From an uncultured virus (IMG/VR IMGVR_UViG_3300003394_000004) (Duplodnaviria; Heunggongvirae; Uroviricota; Caudoviricetes): DNA of 64,000 nt. The translations under genes were made by a program, and so were the position numbers. The notes under the pieces were generated by a model. It did no database searches. It was not told the origin of the DNA and saw only the letters and a list, made by a program, of their open reading frames with translations. The stretch lies in the IMG/VR virus record IMGVR_UViG_3300003394_000004, positions 1-64,000 of that record. One strand, 5' to 3'. The first letter of the stretch is position 1, and each line of letters opens with the position of its first letter. This document shows, in pieces, positions 32,067 through 46,000 of this stretch.

Positions 32067-32630
32067 ATGAAAGTTATATTTTTGGACCACGATGGTGTGA
32101 TATGTCTGTCTGATAATTGGGGTAATCGTTTCAAAAAACAAAAAAGTTGGGGTAAACGTAAATTGTCTATGAGTACTTTAAGTATGCCCGTTGAGTATCG
32201 TTTTGATAATTTTGATGAGGAGGCGGTTAAAGTTCTTAATGAAATCTTAGAGGAAACAGGTGCCGAAATTGTTGTATCTTCAGATTGGAAAAATTGGGCG
32301 ACAGTTGAGGAGATGGGAGAATATTACGAATCAAAAGGTATTATTAAAAAACCAATTGCCTTTACCGATTCTATCTTATATGATGATTATGATGATTTCC
32401 CATGGCACAACAAATCGGAGTTAGAACAAACTCGTAGTTTGGAGATTGCGCAATATATTGGTCAGAATCCTGTAATCACACATTGGGTGGCAATTGATGA
32501 TTTGAATATGTCATTAACGGATGTGCACGATAAGACTTGGGGATTGAAGAACTTTGTATTAACACCCGAAAATAAAGAAGGCATTAAACAAACGGGCATA
32601 AAAGAAAAAGTATTGGAATATTTATTATAA
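32067..32630 (+). CDS. HAD-domain protein (Swiss-army-knife RNA-repair-like)
   Basis: IFLDHDGVI, IVVSSDW, R..EI, WVAIDD. Confidence 0.8.
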   Translation: MKVIFLDHDGVICLSDNWGNRFKKQKSWGKRKLSMSTLSMPVEYRFDNFDEEAVKVLNEILEETGAEIVVSSDWKNWATVEEMGEYYESKGIIKKPIAFTDSILYDDYDDFPWHNKSELEQTRSLEIAQYIGQNPVITHWVAIDDLNMSLTDVHDKTWGLKNFVLTPENKEGIKQTGIKEKVLEYLL

Positions 32631-32632
32631 AA

Positions 32633-33049
32633 ATGGAAGACCAAGACATCATAGCGTACAAAAGTAGTTTTATCCCAAACATGAATATTAATTTGGTATT
32701 CAAAGAAAATCCAAATTATAGTGCAATGAGAAAAATTTTTGACCAATACGGTTATGGATTTCTTGCACCAGAATTCAAAACAATTTTTATTGACGGTGAA
32801 ATATTTTTGGGTGATGATGGTTTAACTATGGATGACATGAAATTTATTGAAGCTCATGAAATCTCACATTTGTTATTGGGACACAACGGACCGAGGTCTG
32901 AAAAAGATGAAATTGAAGCTGATTTGGGAGCGTATATTTTATTGAAGAAAAATGATATGTCAACTGAAAGATTGGAAGATGAATTTGATTCAAGACATGG
33001 AGTACCTTTTAATGAGGACTTATTGAATATTGTAAAAGACAGGTTATAA
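32633..33049 (+). CDS. zincin-like metallopeptidase domain protein
   Basis: AHEISH.LLGH..EIEAD. Confidence 0.65.
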   Translation: MEDQDIIAYKSSFIPNMNINLVFKENPNYSAMRKIFDQYGYGFLAPEFKTIFIDGEIFLGDDGLTMDDMKFIEAHEISHLLLGHNGPRSEKDEIEADLGAYILLKKNDMSTERLEDEFDSRHGVPFNEDLLNIVKDRL

Positions 33050-33062
33050 TTAAAAAAATAAT

Positions 33063-33323
33063 ATGATTAACATTGAAGATTTAAAAGATTTTGACACTTG
33101 GAAAAAGTGGAAAAATGGTATGGTTGAATTGGGAGAACCTGAGTTTGAAACTAAGCCCGGTTTTATAGAAAAAAGAATCCAACAAATGATTCATATTGGC
33201 GCTGATGACAAATATCAACAATACAGTGAAGGGATGTGTGATGATGATATTACAAAATGGAAACAAGGGTTTGTAGTCGGAGCCAACTGGTTATTAAAAA
33301 ATAAAAACGAAAAAAATATTTAA
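33063..33323 (+). CDS. hypothetical protein
   Basis: ORF track. Confidence 0.55.
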   Translation: MINIEDLKDFDTWKKWKNGMVELGEPEFETKPGFIEKRIQQMIHIGADDKYQQYSEGMCDDDITKWKQGFVVGANWLLKNKNEKNI

Positions 33324-33341
33324 CATATCAAGAAACTTTTG

Positions 33342-33349
33342 TATCTTTG
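33342..33349 (+). promoter_or_regulatory. Bacteroidota-type -7 promoter element (TAnnTTTG) upstream of leader 1
   Basis: TATCTTTG. Confidence 0.7.
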
Positions 33350-33372
33350 TACCATATTTAATACTAAACACA

Positions 33373-33468
33373 ATGAAACTCGTAAATAAACAAATCGTGA
33401 AACATGTCATTCAATTCTGTCAGAATTGGTATCTTCGCGTATTTTCAAGTTCGGGTGTTATAAGTTAA
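33373..33468 (+). CDS. leader peptide 1 of tRNA array 1 (MKLVNKQIVKHVIQFCQNWYLRVFSSSGVIS)
   Basis: Read by eye; codons 2-24 encode only, and all of, the 12 amino acids of the downstream tRNAs; 3' end carries the antiterminator strand. Confidence 0.8.
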   Translation: MKLVNKQIVKHVIQFCQNWYLRVFSSSGVIS

Positions 33469-33500
33469 CACGTAGTAGCCTAAAAAAGGAAACCCGAACT
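33448..33500 (+). promoter_or_regulatory. antiterminator helix of attenuator 1
   Basis: AGTTCGGGT (33448-33456) is the exact reverse complement of ACCCGAACT (33492-33500), the terminator 5' arm. Confidence 0.8.
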
Positions 33501-33520
33501 CACAAGGTTCGGGTTTTTTT
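33490..33520 (+). terminator. intrinsic terminator (attenuator 1) before tRNA array 1
   Basis: AAACCCGAAC-TCACAAG-GTTCGGGTTT plus T tract. Confidence 0.9.
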
Positions 33521-33526
33521 GTTTTT

Positions 33527-33548
33527 AAGTTCTTTGACGTATTGGTAA
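33527..33548 (+). promoter_or_regulatory. boxA-like element, copy 1
   Basis: AAGTTCTTTGACGTATTGGTAA, identical to 40464-40485; core GTTCTTTGAC resembles rrn boxA. Confidence 0.7.
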
Positions 33549-33556
33549 CCAAAAAT

Positions 33557-33629
33557 GGGGTAGTGGCAGATGAGGTCATTGCGCCGGACTGAAAATCCGA
33601 AGGAACAGGTTCGATACCTGTCTACCCCA
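33557..33629 (+). tRNA. tRNA-Phe(GAA)
   Basis: CGGA-CTGAAAA-TCCG; acceptor GGGGTAG/CTACCCC. Confidence 0.9.
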
Positions 33630-33638
33630 CAAATACAT

Positions 33639-33715
33639 TGGTGATTAGCTCAGTTGGTTAGAGCACTACGCTGATACCGTAGGGGTCACAGGTTCAAGTC
33701 CTGTATCACCAACCA
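33639..33715 (+). tRNA. tRNA-Ile(GAT)
   Basis: CTACG-CTGATAC-CGTAG; encoded CCA. Confidence 0.93.
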
Positions 33716-33720
33716 TAAAT

Positions 33721-33791
33721 TACCCTTTCGTCTAACGGCAGGACGAGTGGTTTTGGTCCACTTAGTGGAGGTTCGAATCCTTCAGGGGTAA
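33721..33791 (+). tRNA. tRNA-Gln(TTG)
   Basis: AGTGG-TTTTGGT-CCACT. Confidence 0.92.
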
Positions 33792-33797
33792 CAATAT

Positions 33798-33871
33798 GAC
33801 CTTATAGCTCAATTGGCTAGAGCACCGTGCTTTTAACACGGGGGTTTCGGGTTCGAGTCCCGATGGGGTCA
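33798..33871 (+). tRNA. tRNA-Lys(TTT)
   Basis: CCGTG-CTTTTAA-CACGG. Confidence 0.93.
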
Positions 33872-33877
33872 CAATAT

Positions 33878-33950
33878 CTTTCCTTAGCTCAGTTGGAAGA
33901 GCACTTGGCTTACATCCAAGATGTCGTTGGTTCAAATCCAACAGGAAAGA
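33878..33950 (+). tRNA. tRNA-Val(TAC)
   Basis: CTTGG-CTTACAT-CCAAG. Confidence 0.92.
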
Positions 33951-33957
33951 CAAAAAT

Positions 33958-34039
33958 GCCAGTATCGCATAGCGGCAATTGCGGCGGATTGTAAACCCGC
34001 TCTCATTTGAGTTCGTAGGTTCGAGTCCTACTGCTGGCA
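33958..34039 (+). tRNA. tRNA-Tyr(GTA)
   Basis: GCGGA-TTGTAAA-CCCGC; long variable arm. Confidence 0.92.
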
Positions 34040-34101
34040 CAAAACTTATAATCCTCCAAAACTCACTTTTTTTACTAGATTTGGAGGATTATAGAATATA
34101 A

Positions 34102-34175
34102 GTCCATATGCCTGAGCGGTTCAAAGGGACAGTCTGCAAAACTGTTATTCGTTGGTTCGATTCCAACTATGGACT
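34102..34175 (+). tRNA. tRNA-Cys(GCA)
   Basis: ACAGT-CTGCAAA-ACTGT; U73. Confidence 0.92.
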
Positions 34176-34177
34176 CT

Positions 34178-34252
34178 GTGACTGTAGTTCAGTGGTAGAG
34201 CATCGGCTTGTGGTGCCGAGTGTCGTGGGTTCGAATCCCATCAGTCACCCCA
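34178..34252 (+). tRNA. tRNA-His(GTG)
   Basis: TCGGC-TTGTGGT-GCCGA; C73 and encoded CCA; position -1 is T. Confidence 0.92.
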
Positions 34253-34255
34253 AAT

Positions 34256-34330
34256 GGTTCCTTAGTTTAATTGGATAAAACATCTCGCTACGGACGAGAA
34301 GATGTGGGGGTTCGAGTCCCTCAGGAATCA
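34256..34330 (+). tRNA. tRNA-Arg(ACG)
   Basis: TCTCG-CTACGGA-CGAGA. Confidence 0.92.
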
Positions 34331-34337
34331 CAAATAC

Positions 34338-34408
34338 GTAAGTGTGGTGTAATGGTAGCATAAAGGTCTCCAAAACTTTTGGCGAGGGTTCGAGTCCTTC
34401 CACTTGCG
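34338..34408 (+). tRNA. tRNA-Trp(CCA)
   Basis: AAGGT-CTCCAAA-ACTTT; G73. Confidence 0.92.
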
Positions 34409-34414
34409 CAAAAT

Positions 34415-34496
34415 ACCAAAGTGGCGTAACGGTAGCCGCATTAGTCTTAGAAACTAATGTCTTAAAGACGTGTGGGTTCGACTCCCACCTTTGGTA
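34415..34496 (+). tRNA. tRNA-Leu(TAG)
   Basis: TTAGT-CTTAGAA-ACTAA; long variable arm. Confidence 0.92.
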
Positions 34497-34502
34497 CAAC
34501 AT

Positions 34503-34575
34503 TCCTCGGTAGCTCAGTGGTTAGAGCACTCGCCTGTTAAGCGATAGGTCATAGGTTCAAATCCTATCCGGGGAG
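34503..34575 (+). tRNA. tRNA-Asn(GTT)
   Basis: TCGC-CTGTTAA-GCGA; G73. Confidence 0.92.
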
Positions 34576-34621
34576 CAAAATATTTTTTTGTAATGTCAAA
34601 TACCTGTTGTATATTTGTAGT

Positions 34622-35276: not shown

Positions 35277-35354
35277 AGTCAGGTGGCGGAATGGATAGAC
35301 GCAACCACGTAAGTGGTCAAACCGGTGTTACAGGTTCGAATCCTGTCCTGACTA
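35277..35354 (+). ncRNA. tRNA-like RNA with a GTAA tetraloop in place of the anticodon loop
   Basis: Acceptor AGTCAGG/CCTGACT, Leu-like D arm, ACCAC-GTAA-GTGGT, T arm ACAGG-TTCGAAT-CCTGT. Confidence 0.75.
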
Positions 35355-35366
35355 CAAAAACATAAA

Positions 35367-40271: not shown

Positions 40272-40340
40272 ATGAAAACCATATTCATATTCGGCACACC
40301 AGCAACAGAGGCTGATACTTCCAAAGTGGAGATGGGATAA
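40272..40340 (+). CDS. leader peptide 2 of tRNA array 2 (MKTIFIFGTPATEADTSKVEMG)
   Basis: Read by eye; core GTPATEADT and two ATA codons match the downstream tRNAs; 3' end carries the antiterminator strand. Confidence 0.75.
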   Translation: MKTIFIFGTPATEADTSKVEMG

Positions 40341-40374
40341 TATTGTAAAAAAATATCTTACAAAAACCCATCTC
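40329..40374 (+). promoter_or_regulatory. antiterminator helix of attenuator 2
   Basis: GAGATGGG (40329-40336) is the exact reverse complement of CCCATCTC (40367-40374). Confidence 0.75.
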
Positions 40375-40393
40375 GAAAGGATGGGTTTTTTTT
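40362..40393 (+). terminator. intrinsic terminator (attenuator 2) before tRNA array 2
   Basis: AAAAACCCATC-TCGAAAG-GATGGGTTTTT plus T tract. Confidence 0.88.
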
Positions 40394-40400
40394 GTGTTTG

Positions 40401-40432
40401 TTTGGTAGTATTAAAAAAATGTATTAACTTTG
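40401..40432 (+). promoter_or_regulatory. Bacteroidota-type promoter between terminator 2 and array 2
   Basis: TTTG (40401-40404), 20-nt spacer, TAACTTTG (40425-40432). Confidence 0.65.
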
Positions 40433-40463
40433 TATTGTTGTTGAATAAGACAACAGAACAAAA

Positions 40464-40485
40464 AAGTTCTTTGACGTATTGGTAA
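40464..40485 (+). promoter_or_regulatory. boxA-like element, copy 2
   Basis: AAGTTCTTTGACGTATTGGTAA, identical to 33527-33548. Confidence 0.7.
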
Positions 40486-40498
40486 GAAAAAAATAATT

Positions 40499-40570
40499 GC
40501 TCGGTTCATCTATCGGTTAGGATGCCAGGTTTTCATCCTGGAAAGAGGGGTTCGACTCCCCTACCGAGTA
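40499..40570 (+). tRNA. tRNA-Glu(TTC)
   Basis: CCAGG-TTTTCAT-CCTGG. Confidence 0.92.
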
Positions 40571-40579
40571 CAAATAAAT

Positions 40580-40653
40580 CGCGGGTTGGTGTAATGGTAA
40601 CATAATGGGCTCATAACCCATAGTTCCGAGTTCGAGTCTCGGGTCCGCAACCA
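40580..40653 (+). tRNA. initiator tRNA-fMet(CAT)
   Basis: C1:A72 mismatch; GGG/CCC in the anticodon stem; encoded CCA. Confidence 0.9.
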
Positions 40654-40656
40654 ATG

Positions 40657-40738
40657 GATGTAACTTGGGTCGTGCCACATTGGCCACTTTTACATCAAGA
40701 GTCAGAAGGATAAGAGGTGGCCGTGACTACTCTGACTC
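40657..40738 (+). ncRNA. candidate kissing-loop RNA
   Basis: Stems GATGTAA/TTACATC and GAGTCAGA/TCTGACTC; loops carry complementary GGCCAC and GTGGCC. Confidence 0.55.
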
Positions 40739-40746
40739 GAAAAAAG

Positions 40747-40817
40747 CGAGTGTAGTATAAAGGCTATTACTCCAGCCTTCCAAGCTGGATATGGGAGTTC
40801 GATTCTCCCCACTCGCT
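40747..40817 (+). tRNA. tRNA-Gly(TCC)
   Basis: CCAGC-CTTCCAA-GCTGG; U73. Confidence 0.92.
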
Positions 40818-40822
40818 CAAAA

Positions 40823-40898
40823 GCGAGAGTAGCTCAGTCGGTAGAGCATCAGTTTACCAAACTGAGGGTCGCCAGTTCGAACCTGGTCTCTCGCTCCA
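40823..40898 (+). tRNA. tRNA-Gly(ACC)
   Basis: TCAGT-TTACCAA-ACTGA; G1-C72, C2-G71, U73 Gly identity; encoded CCA. Confidence 0.88.
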
Positions 40899-40900
40899 AA

Positions 40901-40959
40901 AGTAAATCTTAAAAAGGGCCCTTCCGTGTTTATCACGGCTTGTTGGGCCCGGGTTTACT
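40901..40959 (+). ncRNA. structured spacer hairpin
   Basis: Nested AGTAAATC/GGTTTACT, GGGCCC/GGGCCC and CCGTG/CACGG stems. Confidence 0.4.
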
Positions 40960-40966
40960 AACTTAC

Positions 40967-41038
40967 GGTCCTGTAGTTAATCGGCTATAATATTGCCCTG
41001 TCACGGCAAAGTGCCGGGTTCGATTCCCGGTGGGACCG
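40967..41038 (+). tRNA. tRNA-Asp(GTC)
   Basis: TTGCC-CTGTCAC-GGCAA; G73. Confidence 0.92.
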
Positions 41039-41049
41039 CAAAAATAAAA

Positions 41050-41119
41050 GGGCCTGATGTCAACGGCAGACCGTTTGATTTGCAATCAGAACGTATGGGT
41101 TCGATTCCCACAGTGTCCA
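41050..41119 (+). tRNA. tRNA-Ala(TGC), irregular acceptor stem
   Basis: TTTGA-TTTGCAA-TCAGA; G3.U70 retained. Confidence 0.75.
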
Positions 41120-41128
41120 CAAACAAAT

Positions 41129-41204
41129 AGCGTAGTAGAGGAGTCAGGTTTATCTCATCTGCTTTGGGAGCAGAGGCACGCTGGTTCGAATCCAGTCTAC
41201 GCTA
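41129..41204 (+). tRNA. tRNA-Pro(TGG)
   Basis: TCTGC-TTTGGGA-GCAGA; A1-U72 instead of the usual C1-G72. Confidence 0.88.
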
Positions 41205-41266
41205 CAATCGTTAAAAAAATATTTGACCAAATCTAATTTTAACGACAATCAATATATTTATTATAT

Positions 41267-42126: not shown

Positions 42127-42203
42127 GCCTGAATAGCTTTAATTGGTAGAGCACCTGACTTGTAATCAGGGGGTTGGCGGTTCGAGTCCGTCTTCAGGCT
42201 CCA
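42127..42203 (+). tRNA. tRNA-Thr(TGT)
   Basis: CCTGA-CTTGTAA-TCAGG; encoded CCA. Confidence 0.93.
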
Positions 42204-42216
42204 AAACACAATAATC

Positions 42217-42402
42217 ATGGACCCCAAGACTCAAATGACGCAGGAAGATTTTTTAACCGAATTGACAGAATTAAGTCAGTCACTTGGGTTGTATGGTGAA
42301 AATGACAACTTTGGTGTTGATGGAGTTTACATACATACCCAACCAGAAATGTACATATGCCCGTGGGATAATACTCAAGGGGATTGTACTCATTTCAACT
42401 AA
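42217..42402 (+). CDS. hypothetical protein
   Basis: ORF track; fills the gap between two tRNAs. Confidence 0.5.
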   Translation: MDPKTQMTQEDFLTELTELSQSLGLYGENDNFGVDGVYIHTQPEMYICPWDNTQGDCTHFN

Positions 42403-42407
42403 TATTT

Positions 42408-42481
42408 GGACGGGTAGCTCAACAGGTTAGAGCAGGATGCTTATATCATCAAGGTTGGGGGTTCAAGTCCCTTCTCGTCTA
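42408..42481 (+). tRNA. tRNA-Ile(TAT)
   Basis: GATG-CTTATAT-CATC; canonical D and T arms. Confidence 0.85.
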
Positions 42482-42495
42482 CTAAAATCATAACT

Positions 42496-42918
42496 ATGAA
42501 CACAGAATATAACGAATGGTATTGGAAACTTTACAGATGGGTAAGATGGGAACTACCCAACCAACACAAATACATTAAGTATGGAGTTCAGAACCTATAT
42601 AAATGGTTTTGGATAATATGGAAAGATAGGGATTGGGACCACCATTATGTTTTTCAGGTATTAAAATTCAAGTTAGAAAAACAAGCCAAACATCTTGTTA
42701 AATATGGTTCTCATGAAAGTTCTGAACGTGATGCTGAGTTAATGATGACTTGTGTTAGGTTAATTGATAAAATACAAAATGAATCATATTATGATGGGTT
42801 TTATGAGTTAGATAAACGGTCATCTGAAGCTCTTAAAATGGTAACAGATAAGCACAATAAAGCTAAACGTTTATTATTTAAAATTCTTGAACAAAAAATT
42901 GAACATTGGTGGGATTAA
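42496..42918 (+). CDS. conserved phage hypothetical protein
   Basis: W..IWKDRDWD..L.FKL..WWD. Confidence 0.7.
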   Translation: MNTEYNEWYWKLYRWVRWELPNQHKYIKYGVQNLYKWFWIIWKDRDWDHHYVFQVLKFKLEKQAKHLVKYGSHESSERDAELMMTCVRLIDKIQNESYYDGFYELDKRSSEALKMVTDKHNKAKRLLFKILEQKIEHWWD

Positions 42919-42947
42919 GAATTTTTTTATTATCTTTGTATAACAAT

Positions 42948-43024
42948 GGACCCTTAGCTCAGTTGGTCAGAGCGGCTGACTCATAATCAGTAGGTCGTAG
43001 GTTCAAGCCCTACAGGGTCCACCA
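42948..43024 (+). tRNA. tRNA-Ile2(CAT), lysidine type (Met not excluded)
   Basis: GCTGA-CTCATAA-TCAGT; GGACCCT acceptor resembles bacterial Ile2; encoded CCA. Confidence 0.8.
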
Positions 43025-43211: not shown

Positions 43212-43278
43212 AATTTAAAAAGACCTGATTTATATCAGGTTTTTTTGTATTTATTTACTAAACAATATATTTTTACTA

Positions 43279-45614: not shown

Positions 45615-46000
45615 TGGTGGAGATGCGAGGTACTGCCCCCCGGTCTTGCTCGTCTTACCCAAGAGGTACTACATGTTTAGGTCAACATTTTCTAATGTTC
45701 CGAAATTCACAATTCCCTTATTTTATAGTGGTTTGGTTTACTGAGAACTAATCCTCCACTTGTTTCTTTTAAGATAGAAACTACACCTTTAAAAGACTTC
45801 TGTTCCTAGGTTGTATGTCTCCCGACCTGTTTTGTAATAGCGATTAGGCTACTACAGAAGCGTTTTCACGGATTAATCCGATAGTCGCCATTTTGTCTAA
45901 AACGTTTCCGTTTAATTTTTTGAACCAGTTTTTAATGAGTTATTTCAGCTCATACATGCACCCATTGACTAACTACGCCAATCGAATCTGTGTCATCCCC
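45615..46000 (-). ncRNA. ssrA: tmRNA
   Basis: 5' GGGGATGA..GATTCGA, 3' ..CATCTCCACCA with G3.U; tag ORF 45909-45844 reads GNVLDKMATIGLIRENASVVA*. Confidence 0.9.

What the first reader, a model, noticed from the sequence alone, without database searches (positions are those of the whole stretch)
33342..34575. Leader-peptide attenuator whose codons list the 12 tRNAs of the array it controls
Seen: promoter TATCTTTG (33342), then a 31-codon ORF (33373-33468, MKLVNKQIVKHVIQFCQNWYLRVFSSSGVIS), then an intrinsic terminator (33490-33520), then 12 tRNAs: Phe, Ile, Gln, Lys, Val, Tyr, Cys, His, Arg(ACG), Trp, Leu(TAG), Asn. Codons 2-24 use all 12 of these amino acids, including rare C, H, W and Y, and no others (no A, D, E, G, P, S or T). 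Arg is CGC and Leu is CTN, matching the isoacceptor families present; reading CTC/CTT/GTC would need expanded U34 wobble. The ORF tail holds AGTTCGGGT, the exact complement of the terminator 5' arm. No promoter is visible between the terminator and the first tRNA. Established: in trp/his-type attenuation, ribosome stalling on leader codons frees an antiterminator. Inference: a ribosome that completes the leader masks the antiterminator and transcription stops. Stalling from loss of any of the 12 tRNAs (starvation, or cleavage by host anticodon nucleases) causes readthrough and resupply of those tRNAs. I know of no described multi-codon attenuator controlling phage tRNA arrays.
Basis: partly seen in the sequence, partly recalled or inferred. 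Interest (0 to 1): 0.96.

Follow-up and report, generated by a model that had tools for sequence, protein, structure and literature searches.

The report
Leader-peptide attenuators gating phage tRNA arrays
In this uncultured freshwater giant phage, each main block of tRNA genes follows a tiny test gene spelled in the amino acids those tRNAs carry plus a switchable stop signal, so the phage probably makes more tRNA when ribosomes run short of it.

Summary

- **Unit 1:** the 31-codon ORF (33373-33468) uses exactly the 12 amino acids of the 12 tRNAs behind it. It is the only one of 74,162 stop-free 23-codon windows in the 117.6-kb record to do so.
- **Unit 2:** I found a second unit of the same build at 40272-40390, ahead of the Glu-Met-Gly-Gly-Asp-(Ala)-Pro... 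block.
- **Relatives:** related IMG/VR and metagenome contigs carry at least 11 leader families of this build. Leader and array content track each other; the true pairing is best of 5040 permutations.
- **Codon choice:** leader codons for Leu, Arg, Ser and Ile follow the isoacceptor present in the array (29 of 37, 20.4 expected).
- **Antiterminator:** pairing between the leader tail and the terminator 5' arm is kept although the sequences differ (own 7.5 bp, mismatched 4.25 bp).
- **22-nt motif:** the motif between terminator and first tRNA is probably not a promoter. It looks like a host-type boxA, identical to the sequence just upstream of 23S rRNA in Flavobacteriales.
- **Caveats:** there is one mismatched relative (L084), weak E-type leaders, and a possible second promoter in unit 2. 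Nothing shows translation or readthrough directly.

My searches found no publication. This scan has noted the same kind of element on other DNA (76 notes, at least 70 genomes).

The parts
33342..33349 (+). Promoter-like -7 box (TAnnTTTG type) of unit 1
   Evidence: Pattern match. The same box type lies 12-25 nt before many ORF and tRNA starts in the window. That this is the Bacteroidota consensus is recalled, not tested. No transcription start has been mapped.
33373..33468 (+). Leader ORF 1 (31 codons plus stop). The sensing core is codons 2-24 (33376-33444).
   Evidence: The core uses exactly the 12 amino acids of array 1. In 3 distinct versions among relatives, codons 2-24 are invariant while codon 25 and the tail vary.
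33448..33456 (+). Antiterminator 5' strand (region 2) inside the ORF tail
   Evidence: Exact 9-base complement of 33492-33500. The fold of 33445-33501 gives -16.9 kcal/mol.
33486..33520 (+). Intrinsic terminator 1. Its 5' arm (33492-33500) is shared with the antiterminator.
   Evidence: 15 pairs, T run. The fold gives -19.0 kcal/mol.
33527..33548 (+). boxA-like motif 1 (rrn-type antitermination signal)
   Evidence: It occurs only twice in the record, each time before an array. The identical sequence lies 12-35 nt upstream of 23S rRNA in Flavobacteriales genomes. A copy with 1 mismatch lies before a CRISPR array. The consensus comes from PMC13753749.
33557..34576 (+). tRNA array 1: Phe, Ile(gat), Gln, Lys, Val, Tyr, Cys, His, Arg(acg), Trp, Leu(tag), Asn
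   Evidence: ARAGORN. All 12 are above the Rfam tRNA gathering score.
40272..40340 (+). Leader ORF 2 (22 codons plus stop)
   Evidence: It holds all 8 amino acids absent from the core of leader 1 (A, D, E, G, M, P, S, T), plus K, I, F and V. Both Ile codons are ATA, matching tRNA-Ile(tat) downstream.
40329..40336 (+). Antiterminator 5' strand of unit 2. It ends 1 nt before the stop codon.
   Evidence: Exact 8-base complement of 40367-40374. The full-length minimum-energy fold keeps this pairing.
40362..40390 (+). Intrinsic terminator 2
   Evidence: 12 pairs, T run. The fold gives -14.7 kcal/mol.
40425..40432 (+). Possible second promoter box (TAnnTTTG) between terminator 2 and boxA 2
   Evidence: It is conserved in the close relatives of unit 2. 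Its function is untested. If active, part of array 2's transcription escapes the attenuator.
40464..40485 (+). boxA-like motif 2
40499..41205 (+). tRNA array 2 (tight part): Glu, Met, Gly(tcc), Gly(acc), Asp, a diverged Ala(UGC)-like gene at 41050-41119, and Pro
   Evidence: 41050-41119 scores 29.5 bits against a cut-off of 29; it aligns with the tRNA-Ala(tgc) of relative L088.
42127..43024 (+). Extended part of array 2: Thr(tgt), Ile(tat) and Met, with small ORFs between. The next terminator-like site is at 43216-43247.
   Evidence: Relatives show the same order.

Best explanation
Each of the two units is a ribosome-mediated transcription attenuator placed in front of tRNA genes.

Transcription starts upstream of a short leader ORF. 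The leader's middle codons sample the amino acids, and largely the codon boxes, served by the tRNAs of the downstream block. If a ribosome reads the leader without delay, it reaches the ORF tail and covers the segment that could pair with the terminator's 5' arm. The terminator hairpin then forms and transcription stops.

If the ribosome is held at any sampled codon because that aminoacyl-tRNA is scarce, the tail segment stays free. It pairs with the 5' arm as the arm emerges, the terminator cannot form, and RNA polymerase runs on. It next transcribes a host-type boxA. This presumably loads the NusB/S10 antitermination complex, so the long untranslated tRNA transcript is completed.

Rising tRNA supply speeds leader translation and shuts the block off again. 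That is product feedback.

- **Shown from sequence and comparison:** the parts, the amino-acid and codon match, the co-variation with arrays, the conserved alternative pairing, and the identity of the motif with host rRNA-spacer sequence.
- **Inferred:** that the leader is translated, that stalling causes readthrough, that boxA recruits Nus factors, and what the natural trigger is.
For: **1. Unit 1 against chance.** It is 1 of 74,162 windows, with a composition null of about 4e-8.

**2. Leader cores against their own arrays.** The composition null used 200,000 simulations per unit.

| Unit | P |
|---|---|
| F1, B2, B3, D2 | 0 |
| B1 | 5e-6 |
| B4 | 8e-5 |
| C1 | 6.5e-5 |
| C2 | 0.007 |
| F2 | 0.016 |
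| F2b | 0.014 |
| E2 | 0.04 |
| E1 | 0.13 |

**3. Pairing control.** For 7 leader families, the true leader-array pairing is the single best of 5040 permutations, by both Jaccard and precision.

**4. Co-variation inside family B.** The version whose array lacks tRNA-Ala and holds tRNA-Ser(gct) has lost all three Ala codons and gained an AGT Ser codon.

**5. Codon level.**
- In the split codon boxes (Leu, Arg, Ser, Ile), 29 of 37 core codons fall in the box read by the array's isoacceptor, against 20.4 expected (P=5.5e-4).
- Overall, 140 of 175 core codons are decodable by the leader's own array, against 83 expected.
- In this genome CTN is 23% of Leu codons, CGN 27% of Arg and ATA 25% of Ile. 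Leader 1 nevertheless uses CTC, CTT and CGC, and leader 2 uses ATA twice.

**6. Position of the match.** The match is concentrated where a stalled ribosome would leave the tail free.

| Zone | Residues in array set |
|---|---|
| Middle | 94 of 102 |
| Codons 2-5 | 20 of 28 |
| Last 3 codons | 12 of 21 |

**7. Tail to 5'-arm complement in 11 families.** Own pairs average 7.5 bp (range 6-9). The 110 mismatched pairs average 4.25, and 1 of them reaches 7 or more. Shuffled tails average 4.27, and 1.8% reach 7 or more.

**8. Energies.** The antiterminator is -16.9 and the terminator -19.0 kcal/mol in unit 1. The unit 2 minimum-energy fold keeps the antiterminator.

**9. The boxA-like motif.** It lies only before the two arrays and must be transcribed from upstream to act. 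Unit 1 has no TAnnTTTG box between the terminator and the tRNAs.

**10. RNA libraries (weak).** One contig from a metatranscriptome library, about 94.5% identical, spans 33409-33868. That runs from the leader through the terminator and boxA into the fourth tRNA.
Against: - No direct evidence exists for translation of the leader, for stalling or for readthrough. RNA-library contigs may come from DNA and cannot show ends.
- L084 carries a B1-type leader with three Ala codons, but its array lacks tRNA-Ala and holds tRNA-Ser(gct).
- E-type leaders match their long arrays no better than chance (P 0.13 and 0.04).
- Leader 2 in this window holds K, F, V and S codons with no tRNA in its block. Its Ala tRNA is a borderline gene.
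- Leader C1 lacks Arg although its array has tRNA-Arg.
- CTC, CTT and GTC need four-way U34 wobble.
- Unit 2 has a TAnnTTTG box after its terminator, which could feed the array independently of the attenuator.
- In some families the complementary segment ends 21-29 nt before the stop codon. A ribosome parked at the stop would not cover it.
- The leader families are related to each other, so they are not fully independent samples.
Confidence: 0.72

Rival explanations
1. The leader is a translation sensor, but its output or input differs from the model. It may report general translation capacity or amino-acid starvation rather than supply of the array's own tRNAs. It may act through Rho, RNA processing or RNA stability rather than the intrinsic terminator. 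Or the attenuator may only modulate a mainly promoter-driven array, as could be the case in unit 2.
For: - A TAnnTTTG box lies between terminator 2 and boxA 2.
- boxA points to Rho avoidance.
- Leaders hold some amino acids with no tRNA in the block.
- Stalling reports aminoacyl-tRNA, which depends on amino acids as well as tRNA (established for trp and his attenuators; recalled).
Against: - The identity-by-identity and codon-box match to the block's own tRNAs is hard to explain by a general sensor.
- The two leaders of one phage have complementary content.
- The terminator and its competing pairing are conserved through sequence change.
Confidence: 0.17
2. The polarity is the opposite: efficient translation of the leader promotes readthrough, for example by the ribosome hindering the terminator, and stalling gives termination.
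For: Ribosomes close to a terminator can suppress it. This is from the abstract of PMC4824070 only, seen in the listing.
Against: - The stop codon lies 20-32 nt before the terminator stem in all 11 families. By recalled ribosome-footprint sizes this looks too far for a terminating ribosome to cover the stem.
- What the ribosome does cover is the segment complementary to the 5' arm.
Confidence: 0.05
3. This is an ordinary small gene followed by an ordinary terminator that ends the upstream operon. The array has its own start, and the match in amino-acid content arises by chance or nucleotide bias.
For: - The upstream ORFs (32067-33323) run in the same direction with no terminator before 33342.
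- An RNA-library contig spans 33239-33463.
- AT-rich frames are rich in the amino acids of array 1: 229 windows lie within the set.
Against: - Only 1 of 74,162 windows covers all 12 amino acids.
- The association repeats in many families and follows array changes.
- The tail to 5'-arm complement is conserved.
- The peptide sequence is not conserved, but its composition is.
- No promoter box lies between terminator 1 and array 1.
Confidence: 0.04

Closest known systems
Multivalent leader-peptide attenuators of enterobacterial amino-acid operons (ilvGMEDA, ilvBN, thr; also trp, his, leu, pheA). Recalled knowledge, not from a call.
   Same: A short leader ORF is enriched in regulatory codons. An intrinsic terminator competes with an antiterminator that shares its 5' arm, and ribosome position decides which forms.
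   Different: - The genes under control are tRNA genes, not biosynthetic enzymes.
- Up to 12-14 different amino acids are sampled, mostly once or twice each, rather than runs of one to three.
- The element is carried by a phage.
- No anti-antiterminator was found, so an untranslated leader should read through.
- A boxA follows the terminator.
- No Rfam leader family reaches threshold: the best is Thr_leader at 25.7 bits against 55.
pheST (pheM leader) attenuator controlling phenylalanyl-tRNA synthetase in E. coli. Recalled.
   Same: A leader-peptide attenuator controls a component of the decoding machinery in response to supply of the matching aminoacyl-tRNA.
   Different: It has one amino acid and one synthetase, in a cellular genome. 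Here whole blocks of tRNA genes are controlled, and the product itself (the tRNA) is what the leader consumes.
rrn boxA / NusB-S10 antitermination (passages of PMC13753749 read)
   Same: By eye, the 22-nt motif matches the printed boxA consensus in 8 of 12 positions (E. coli) and 9 of 13 (B. subtilis). The identical sequence lies just upstream of 23S rRNA in Flavobacteriales, and a copy with 1 mismatch lies before a CRISPR array. These are the places where the paper says boxA occurs.
   Different: Here it sits on a phage, at the head of tRNA blocks and directly after a regulated terminator. Binding of Nus factors is untested.
T-box riboswitches (tRNA-sensing leaders of Firmicutes). Recalled.
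   Same: They sense tRNA status and choose between a terminator and an antiterminator.
   Different: T-boxes bind one uncharged tRNA directly and need no translation. No T-box match was found.
Earlier notes of this scan on other genomes
   Same: They describe the same kind: leader ORF, switchable terminator and phage tRNA array (76 notes, at least 70 genomes), and boxA at the head of phage tRNA arrays (17 notes). Note e1-6032653 concerns a relative of this window.
   Different: They are unpublished AI notes, used as leads only. In this window the flanking processing stem that some of them report was not supported.

Membership tests
Leader-peptide (ribosome-mediated) transcription attenuator | Short ORF upstream of the controlled genes, enriched in codons tied to the controlled function | tested here: met
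Leader-peptide (ribosome-mediated) transcription attenuator | Intrinsic terminator between the leader ORF and the controlled genes | tested here: met
   (33486-33520; 40362-40390). Present in all 62 units collected, although a terminator was a selection criterion there.
Leader-peptide (ribosome-mediated) transcription attenuator | Alternative pairing that sequesters the terminator 5' arm and lies where a translating ribosome can mask it | tested here: met
   Own pairs average 7.5 bp against 4.25 bp for mismatched pairs. In this window the segment ends 9 nt (unit 1) and 1 nt (unit 2) before the stop codon.
Leader-peptide (ribosome-mediated) transcription attenuator | Anti-antiterminator (1:2) pairing as in trp, giving termination without translation | tested here: not met
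   The upstream hairpin (33392-33444) does not involve 33448-33456.
Leader-peptide (ribosome-mediated) transcription attenuator | The leader is translated, and stalling changes termination | not testable with these tools
   Only contigs from RNA libraries were available.
Leader-peptide (ribosome-mediated) transcription attenuator | Controlled genes are amino-acid biosynthesis or synthetase genes | tested here: not met
   The controlled genes are tRNA genes.
rrn-type boxA antitermination signal | Sequence close to the boxA consensus | tested here: met
   By-eye comparison with the consensus printed in PMC13753749: 8 of 12 and 9 of 13 positions.
rrn-type boxA antitermination signal | Occurs in the host-type rRNA operon spacer or leader and before other long untranslated RNAs | tested here: met
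   - Of 5 exact-match bacterial or metagenome loci run through Rfam, 3 (L051, L070, L137) have it 12-35 nt upstream of 23S. L046 and L059 gave no Rfam hit.
- A copy with 1 mismatch lies before a CRISPR array.
- Matches with up to 2 mismatches occur in 52 of 81 genomes of the order.
- No copy upstream of a 16S gene was looked for.
rrn-type boxA antitermination signal | Binds NusB/S10 and makes RNA polymerase termination-resistant | not testable with these tools
   No test was possible.
T-box riboswitch | Specifier loop and T-box sequence (Rfam model) | tested here: not met
   No match.
Rfam leader families (Thr, Phe, Trp, His, Leu leaders) | Score at or above the family's gathering threshold | tested here: not met
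   The best scores are Thr_leader at 25.7 against 55 and Phe_leader at 24.8 against 55. The Phe_leader match is on the wrong strand.

The most novel reading that the evidence does not exclude
Phages carry a co-evolving family of multi-codon tRNA-supply meters. Each tRNA block is under product feedback through a leader peptide that samples every tRNA of that block. After the decision, a host-type boxA commits the polymerase to finish the block. The circuit lets the phage replace exactly those tRNAs that the host lacks or that host anticodon nucleases destroy. The leaders are rewritten whenever tRNA genes are gained or lost.
Probability: 0.5. Interest if true: 0.92.

Novelty: new variant of a known kind. 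Interest (0 to 1): 0.88.

Why it matters
Why phages carry tRNA genes, and how they are expressed, is an old open question. A leader whose codons list the tRNAs behind it gives a direct handle that can be tested.

- It predicts which tRNA shortage switches on which block.
- It links phage tRNAs to host tRNA depletion and anticodon-nuclease defence. An RNA-repair-type HAD gene lies just upstream.
- It would extend attenuation from one to three amino acids to a dozen, and from enzymes to tRNAs themselves.

In practice, such leaders could serve as compact sensors of decoding capacity. They also show that short ORFs before tRNA arrays should be annotated rather than ignored.

Tried and rejected
**22-nt motif as a promoter.** Rejected. 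It has no TAnnTTTG or conserved sigma-70 partner. It lies between tRNAs in some relatives. It is identical to host rRNA-spacer sequence.

**Processing stem flanking the arrays, as in rRNA precursors.** This was a lead from earlier notes. None of 4 duplex tests was better than shuffles.

**GenBank phage collection.** 1131 records matched, but only over tRNA genes (at most 7% of the query). No relative was found.

**Leaders before the other tRNAs of the window** (Ser-Ser, Leu(taa), Arg(tct)). None was seen by eye.

**Rfam leader families.** Only sub-threshold hits, driven by the terminator hairpins.

**Bacterial hits to the motif in other phyla.** Hits in Thermoguttaceae and others have no tRNAs. 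From the sequence they look like part of a coding gene, but this was not followed up.

**Loci with 1-3 mismatches to the motif.** L124, L125, L128, L130, L133, L134, L135 and L139 gave no Rfam hit.

**RNA-library contigs.**
- Uncovered parts and contig ends are not interpretable.
- The many joints between tRNAs come from other organisms' tRNA genes.

**Earlier notes for this genome.** The look-up returned nothing.

The same control was then run from stored data.
Full report
**The observation**

The window lies in a 117,610-b IMG/VR virus record, 31% G+C, estimated 39% complete. All 28 tRNA genes ARAGORN finds in the record lie in the window. Rfam adds a borderline tRNA at 41050-41119 and a tmRNA.

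- a TAnnTTTG-type box at 33342-33349;
- a 31-codon ORF at 33373-33468;
- an intrinsic terminator at 33486-33520;
- twelve closely spaced tRNA genes at 33557-34576 with the stated anticodons.

Codons 2-24 use exactly the twelve amino acids of those tRNAs. Positions 33448-33456 in the ORF tail are the exact complement of 33492-33500 in the terminator's 5' arm.

**Chance**

Six-frame translation of the whole record gives 74,162 stop-free 23-residue windows. Of these, 229 lie within the twelve-amino-acid set. Their coverage runs from 5 to 10 amino acids, except for one window, the leader, which covers all 12. None of 32,892 windows inside the 133 long ORFs lies within the set. With the amino-acid composition of those ORFs, the joint probability is about 4e-8 per window.

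Codon choice adds to this. In long ORFs of this genome, CTN makes up 23% of Leu codons and CGN 27% of Arg codons. The leader nevertheless uses CTC, CTT and CGC, which fit tRNA-Leu(tag) and tRNA-Arg(acg) in the array. They do not fit tRNA-Leu(taa) and tRNA-Arg(tct), which lie elsewhere.

**A second unit in the same window**

Upstream of the second tRNA block I found the same build:
- a 22-codon ORF at 40272-40340;
- a tail segment at 40329-40336 that is the exact complement of 40367-40374;
- an intrinsic terminator at 40362-40390.

This leader holds all eight amino acids that the core of leader 1 lacks (A, D, E, G, M, P, S, T), plus K, I, F and V. The block behind it is Glu, Met, Gly, Gly, Asp, an Ala(UGC)-like gene, and Pro. 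Thr, Ile(tat) and Met follow, with small ORFs between.

Both Ile codons of leader 2 are ATA (25% usage), matching tRNA-Ile(tat). Those of leader 1 are ATC and ATT, matching tRNA-Ile(gat). The match of unit 2 is weaker than that of unit 1: 12 of 18 core residues, composition null P about 0.016.

In relatives (L088, L119) the same leader stands before a block that also holds tRNA-Ser(gga) and a clear tRNA-Ala(tgc). These read the leader's TCC and GCA codons.

**The motif between terminator and tRNAs**

A 22-nt motif occurs exactly twice in the record, at 33527-33548 and 40464-40485. Each copy lies just before the first tRNA of a block.

The evidence that it is boxA-like:
- Its 19-base core is found unchanged at 36 places in IMG/VR, 68 in metagenome contigs and 14 in bacterial genomes.
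- In Cryomorpha ignava (Flavobacteriales) it lies 12 nt upstream of the 23S rRNA 5' end, after 16S, tRNA-Ile and tRNA-Ala.
- The same holds for metagenome contig L070 and for L137, from a genome with three exact copies.
- L046 and L059 gave no Rfam hit, so 3 of 5 exact-match loci tested are rRNA spacers.
- A copy with one mismatch in C. ignava lies directly before a CRISPR array.
- With up to two mismatches, it occurs in 52 of 81 sampled genomes of that order.

Passages of PMC13753749 give the boxA consensus of E. coli and B. subtilis. They state that boxA lies upstream of 16S and 23S and before suhB and CRISPR operons. By eye the phage motif matches 8 of 12 and 9 of 13 consensus positions.

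I therefore read it as a host-type boxA. Because boxA acts as RNA, the transcript must begin upstream of it. In unit 1 only 6 nt separate the terminator's T run from the motif, and no TAnnTTTG box lies between 33349 and 34076. This fits readthrough from the leader promoter and argues against a separate start.

In unit 2 a TAnnTTTG box at 40425-40432, followed by a small hairpin, lies between terminator and boxA. It is conserved in close relatives. Array 2 may therefore have a second, attenuator-independent input.

**Relatives**

The motif served as a handle. Of the 120 loci that hold it, most with tRNAs show a short ORF, then a terminator, then a tRNA block.

An automatic pass required four things: a terminator, an ATG ORF of 15-60 codons ending shortly before it, at least 6 bp of Watson-Crick complement between the ORF tail and the 5' arm, and a tRNA within 250 nt. 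It found 62 units with 19 distinct leader peptides. A few more were read by hand.

The leaders fall into at least 11 families. They are related to each other through a shared N-terminal pattern and similar central parts, but they differ in content along with their arrays:
- **Family B** adds Pro, Met and Ala and drops Phe, as does its array.
- **Family C1** (11 array amino acids) contains 10 of them.
- **Family C2** contains all 10 of its array's amino acids.
- **Family D2** contains 6 of 7.

**Statistics on the correspondence**

Against a composition null of 200,000 simulated cores per unit, the joint probability of matching both observed precision and coverage was as follows:

| Unit | P |
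|---|---|
| F1, B2, B3, D2 | 0 |
| B1 | 5e-6 |
| B4 | 8e-5 |
| C1 | 6.5e-5 |
| C2 | 0.007 |
| F2 | 0.016 |
| F2b | 0.014 |
| E2 | 0.04 |
| E1 | 0.13 |

Units with arrays cut off by a contig end (D1, Fx, G, H, I) were left out of these counts.

Further tests:
- Pairing seven families' leaders with each other's arrays, the true pairing is the only one of 5040 permutations to reach the observed sum, for both Jaccard index and precision.
- At codon level, 29 of 37 Leu, Arg, Ser and Ile core codons lie in the box read by the isoacceptor in the leader's own array, against 20.4 expected (P 5.5e-4).
- Overall, 140 of 175 core codons are decodable by the leader's own array, against 83 expected from this genome's codon usage. 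This assumes four-way wobble for U34 in family boxes.

The match is positional. In the middle zone, 94 of 102 residues belong to the array set, against 20 of 28 at codons 2-5 and 12 of 21 in the last three codons before the complementary segment. This is what one expects if only a ribosome stalled well upstream leaves that segment free.

**Change within a family**

Among 8 distinct DNA versions of the family B leader, the peptide is not conserved but its composition is. Substitutions swap one array amino acid for another.

The version before an array that lacks tRNA-Ala and has tRNA-Ser(gct) has replaced all three Ala codons and gained an AGT codon. Against this, L084 has the Ala-containing leader before the Ala-less, Ser-containing array. 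That may reflect lag, recombination or a chimeric assembly.

The three versions of leader 1 differ only at codon 25 and in the tail.

**The switch**

In unit 1 the segment 33445-33501 folds into a branched antiterminator closed by the 9-bp helix, at -16.9 kcal/mol. The terminator alone is -19.0. Masking the region a ribosome at the stop codon would cover leaves only the terminator. An upstream hairpin (33392-33444) does not involve the tail segment, so there is no trp-like anti-antiterminator, and an untranslated leader should read through. In unit 2 the full-length minimum-energy fold itself keeps the antiterminator.

Across 11 families the terminator arms differ in sequence, yet each tail still carries a 6-9 bp complement of its own 5' arm (mean 7.5):
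- Mismatched tail-arm pairs average 4.25 bp, and 1 of 110 reaches 7.
- Shuffled tails average 4.27 bp, and 1.8% reach 7.
- The stop codon lies 20-32 nt before the stem in all families.
- The complementary segment ends 1-29 nt before the stop.
- In the families with the longest distances (D2, G, H), a ribosome parked at the stop would not cover it. There the model needs a ribosome in transit.

**Expression**

Freshwater metatranscriptome libraries hold parts of the region as contigs. One contig of run X1 (461 nt, 25 differences) spans 33409-33868, from inside the leader through the terminator and boxA into the fourth tRNA. One contig of X4 spans 33239-33463. Contigs cannot show ends or strand, and DNA may be present in such libraries, so this is only a weak hint of readthrough.

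**Surroundings**

- The gene just upstream (32067-32630) has the HAD domain of 'Swiss Army Knife' RNA-repair proteins.
- An HNH endonuclease, an aminotransferase and an M23 peptidase lie nearby.
- TAnnTTTG boxes precede many ORFs and single tRNAs.
- These boxes and the Flavobacteriales-type boxA point to a Bacteroidota host. This is an inference; the promoter consensus is recalled.

**Known systems and novelty**

The logic is that of leader-peptide attenuation, and its nearest relatives are the multivalent ilv and thr leaders and the pheST leader (recalled). It differs from them in what is controlled (tRNA genes), in sampling a dozen amino acids, in being a co-evolving phage family, in lacking an anti-antiterminator, and in the boxA that follows.

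No Rfam family fits. Five full-text searches found no description of such control of tRNA genes; I saw listings and abstracts only:

| Result |
|---|
| 12 papers |
| 0 papers |
| 168 papers held the terms, 12 listed |
| 1 paper |
| 14 papers held the terms, 10 listed |

Subscription journals are not covered. I consulted no supplements.

This scan has noted the same kind of element before on other DNA: 76 notes in at least 70 genomes for the attenuators and 17 for boxA at phage tRNA arrays, including a relative of this window. I saw these notes after my own analysis. They agree with it, except that the flanking stem some of them describe is not supported here.

**Verdict**

The attenuator reading is the best-supported explanation (0.72) and is testable with simple reporter constructs. 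It is a new variant of a known kind of control and of high interest.

Noticed in passing
window 45615-46000 (-): The phage carries a full-length tmRNA gene (Rfam RF00023, 63.7 bits against a cut-off of 47), a few kb from the tRNA blocks.
   Followed up: no
window 32067-32630 (+): The gene just upstream of unit 1 has the HAD domain of 'Swiss Army Knife' RNA-repair proteins (PF18143, E 2.9e-20). This fits a tRNA-damage context.
   Followed up: no
window 34047-34093 (+): A perfect 14-bp inverted repeat with a 19-nt loop fills the only long gap in array 1, between tRNA-Tyr and tRNA-Cys. No T run follows it, so it is not a terminator. It may be a processing site.
   Followed up: no
window 41050-41119 (+): A diverged tRNA-Ala(UGC)-like gene. 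ARAGORN does not call it, and Rfam scores it 29.5 bits against a cut-off of 29. It aligns with the clear tRNA-Ala(tgc) of relative L088 but has a 3-base gap in the acceptor region and a different D arm. It may be a decaying gene.
   Followed up: partly
window 40654-40745 (+): A 92-nt stretch between tRNA-Met and tRNA-Gly in array 2 that no tool calls as a tRNA. Relatives have a second tRNA-Met at that place.
   Followed up: no
window 35277-35355 (+): A tRNA-like gene. ARAGORN reports an undetermined type with a two-base anticodon; Rfam tRNA gives 41.2 bits. RNA-library contigs show short skips inside it (35292-35331).
   Followed up: no
L122:1501-1517 (Cryomorpha ignava genome): A boxA-like sequence, one mismatch from the phage motif, lies directly upstream of a CRISPR array with 37-nt repeats and just after the end of a cas-like gene.
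   Followed up: partly
L084 (marine metagenome contig), leader about 170 nt upstream of the motif: A family B leader with three Ala codons stands before an array without tRNA-Ala but with tRNA-Ser(gct). This is the one clear mismatch between leader and array.
   Followed up: partly
window 40433-40463 (+): A small hairpin lies between the TAnnTTTG box and boxA 2. Its sequence differs in relative L008 while still forming a hairpin by eye. The layout resembles the boxB-boxA order of rrn leaders.
   Followed up: no
window 40823-40898 and 34256-34331 (+): tRNA-Gly(acc) and tRNA-Arg(acg) both carry A34. Relatives have Gly(gcc) at the same place (L088, L119).
   Followed up: no
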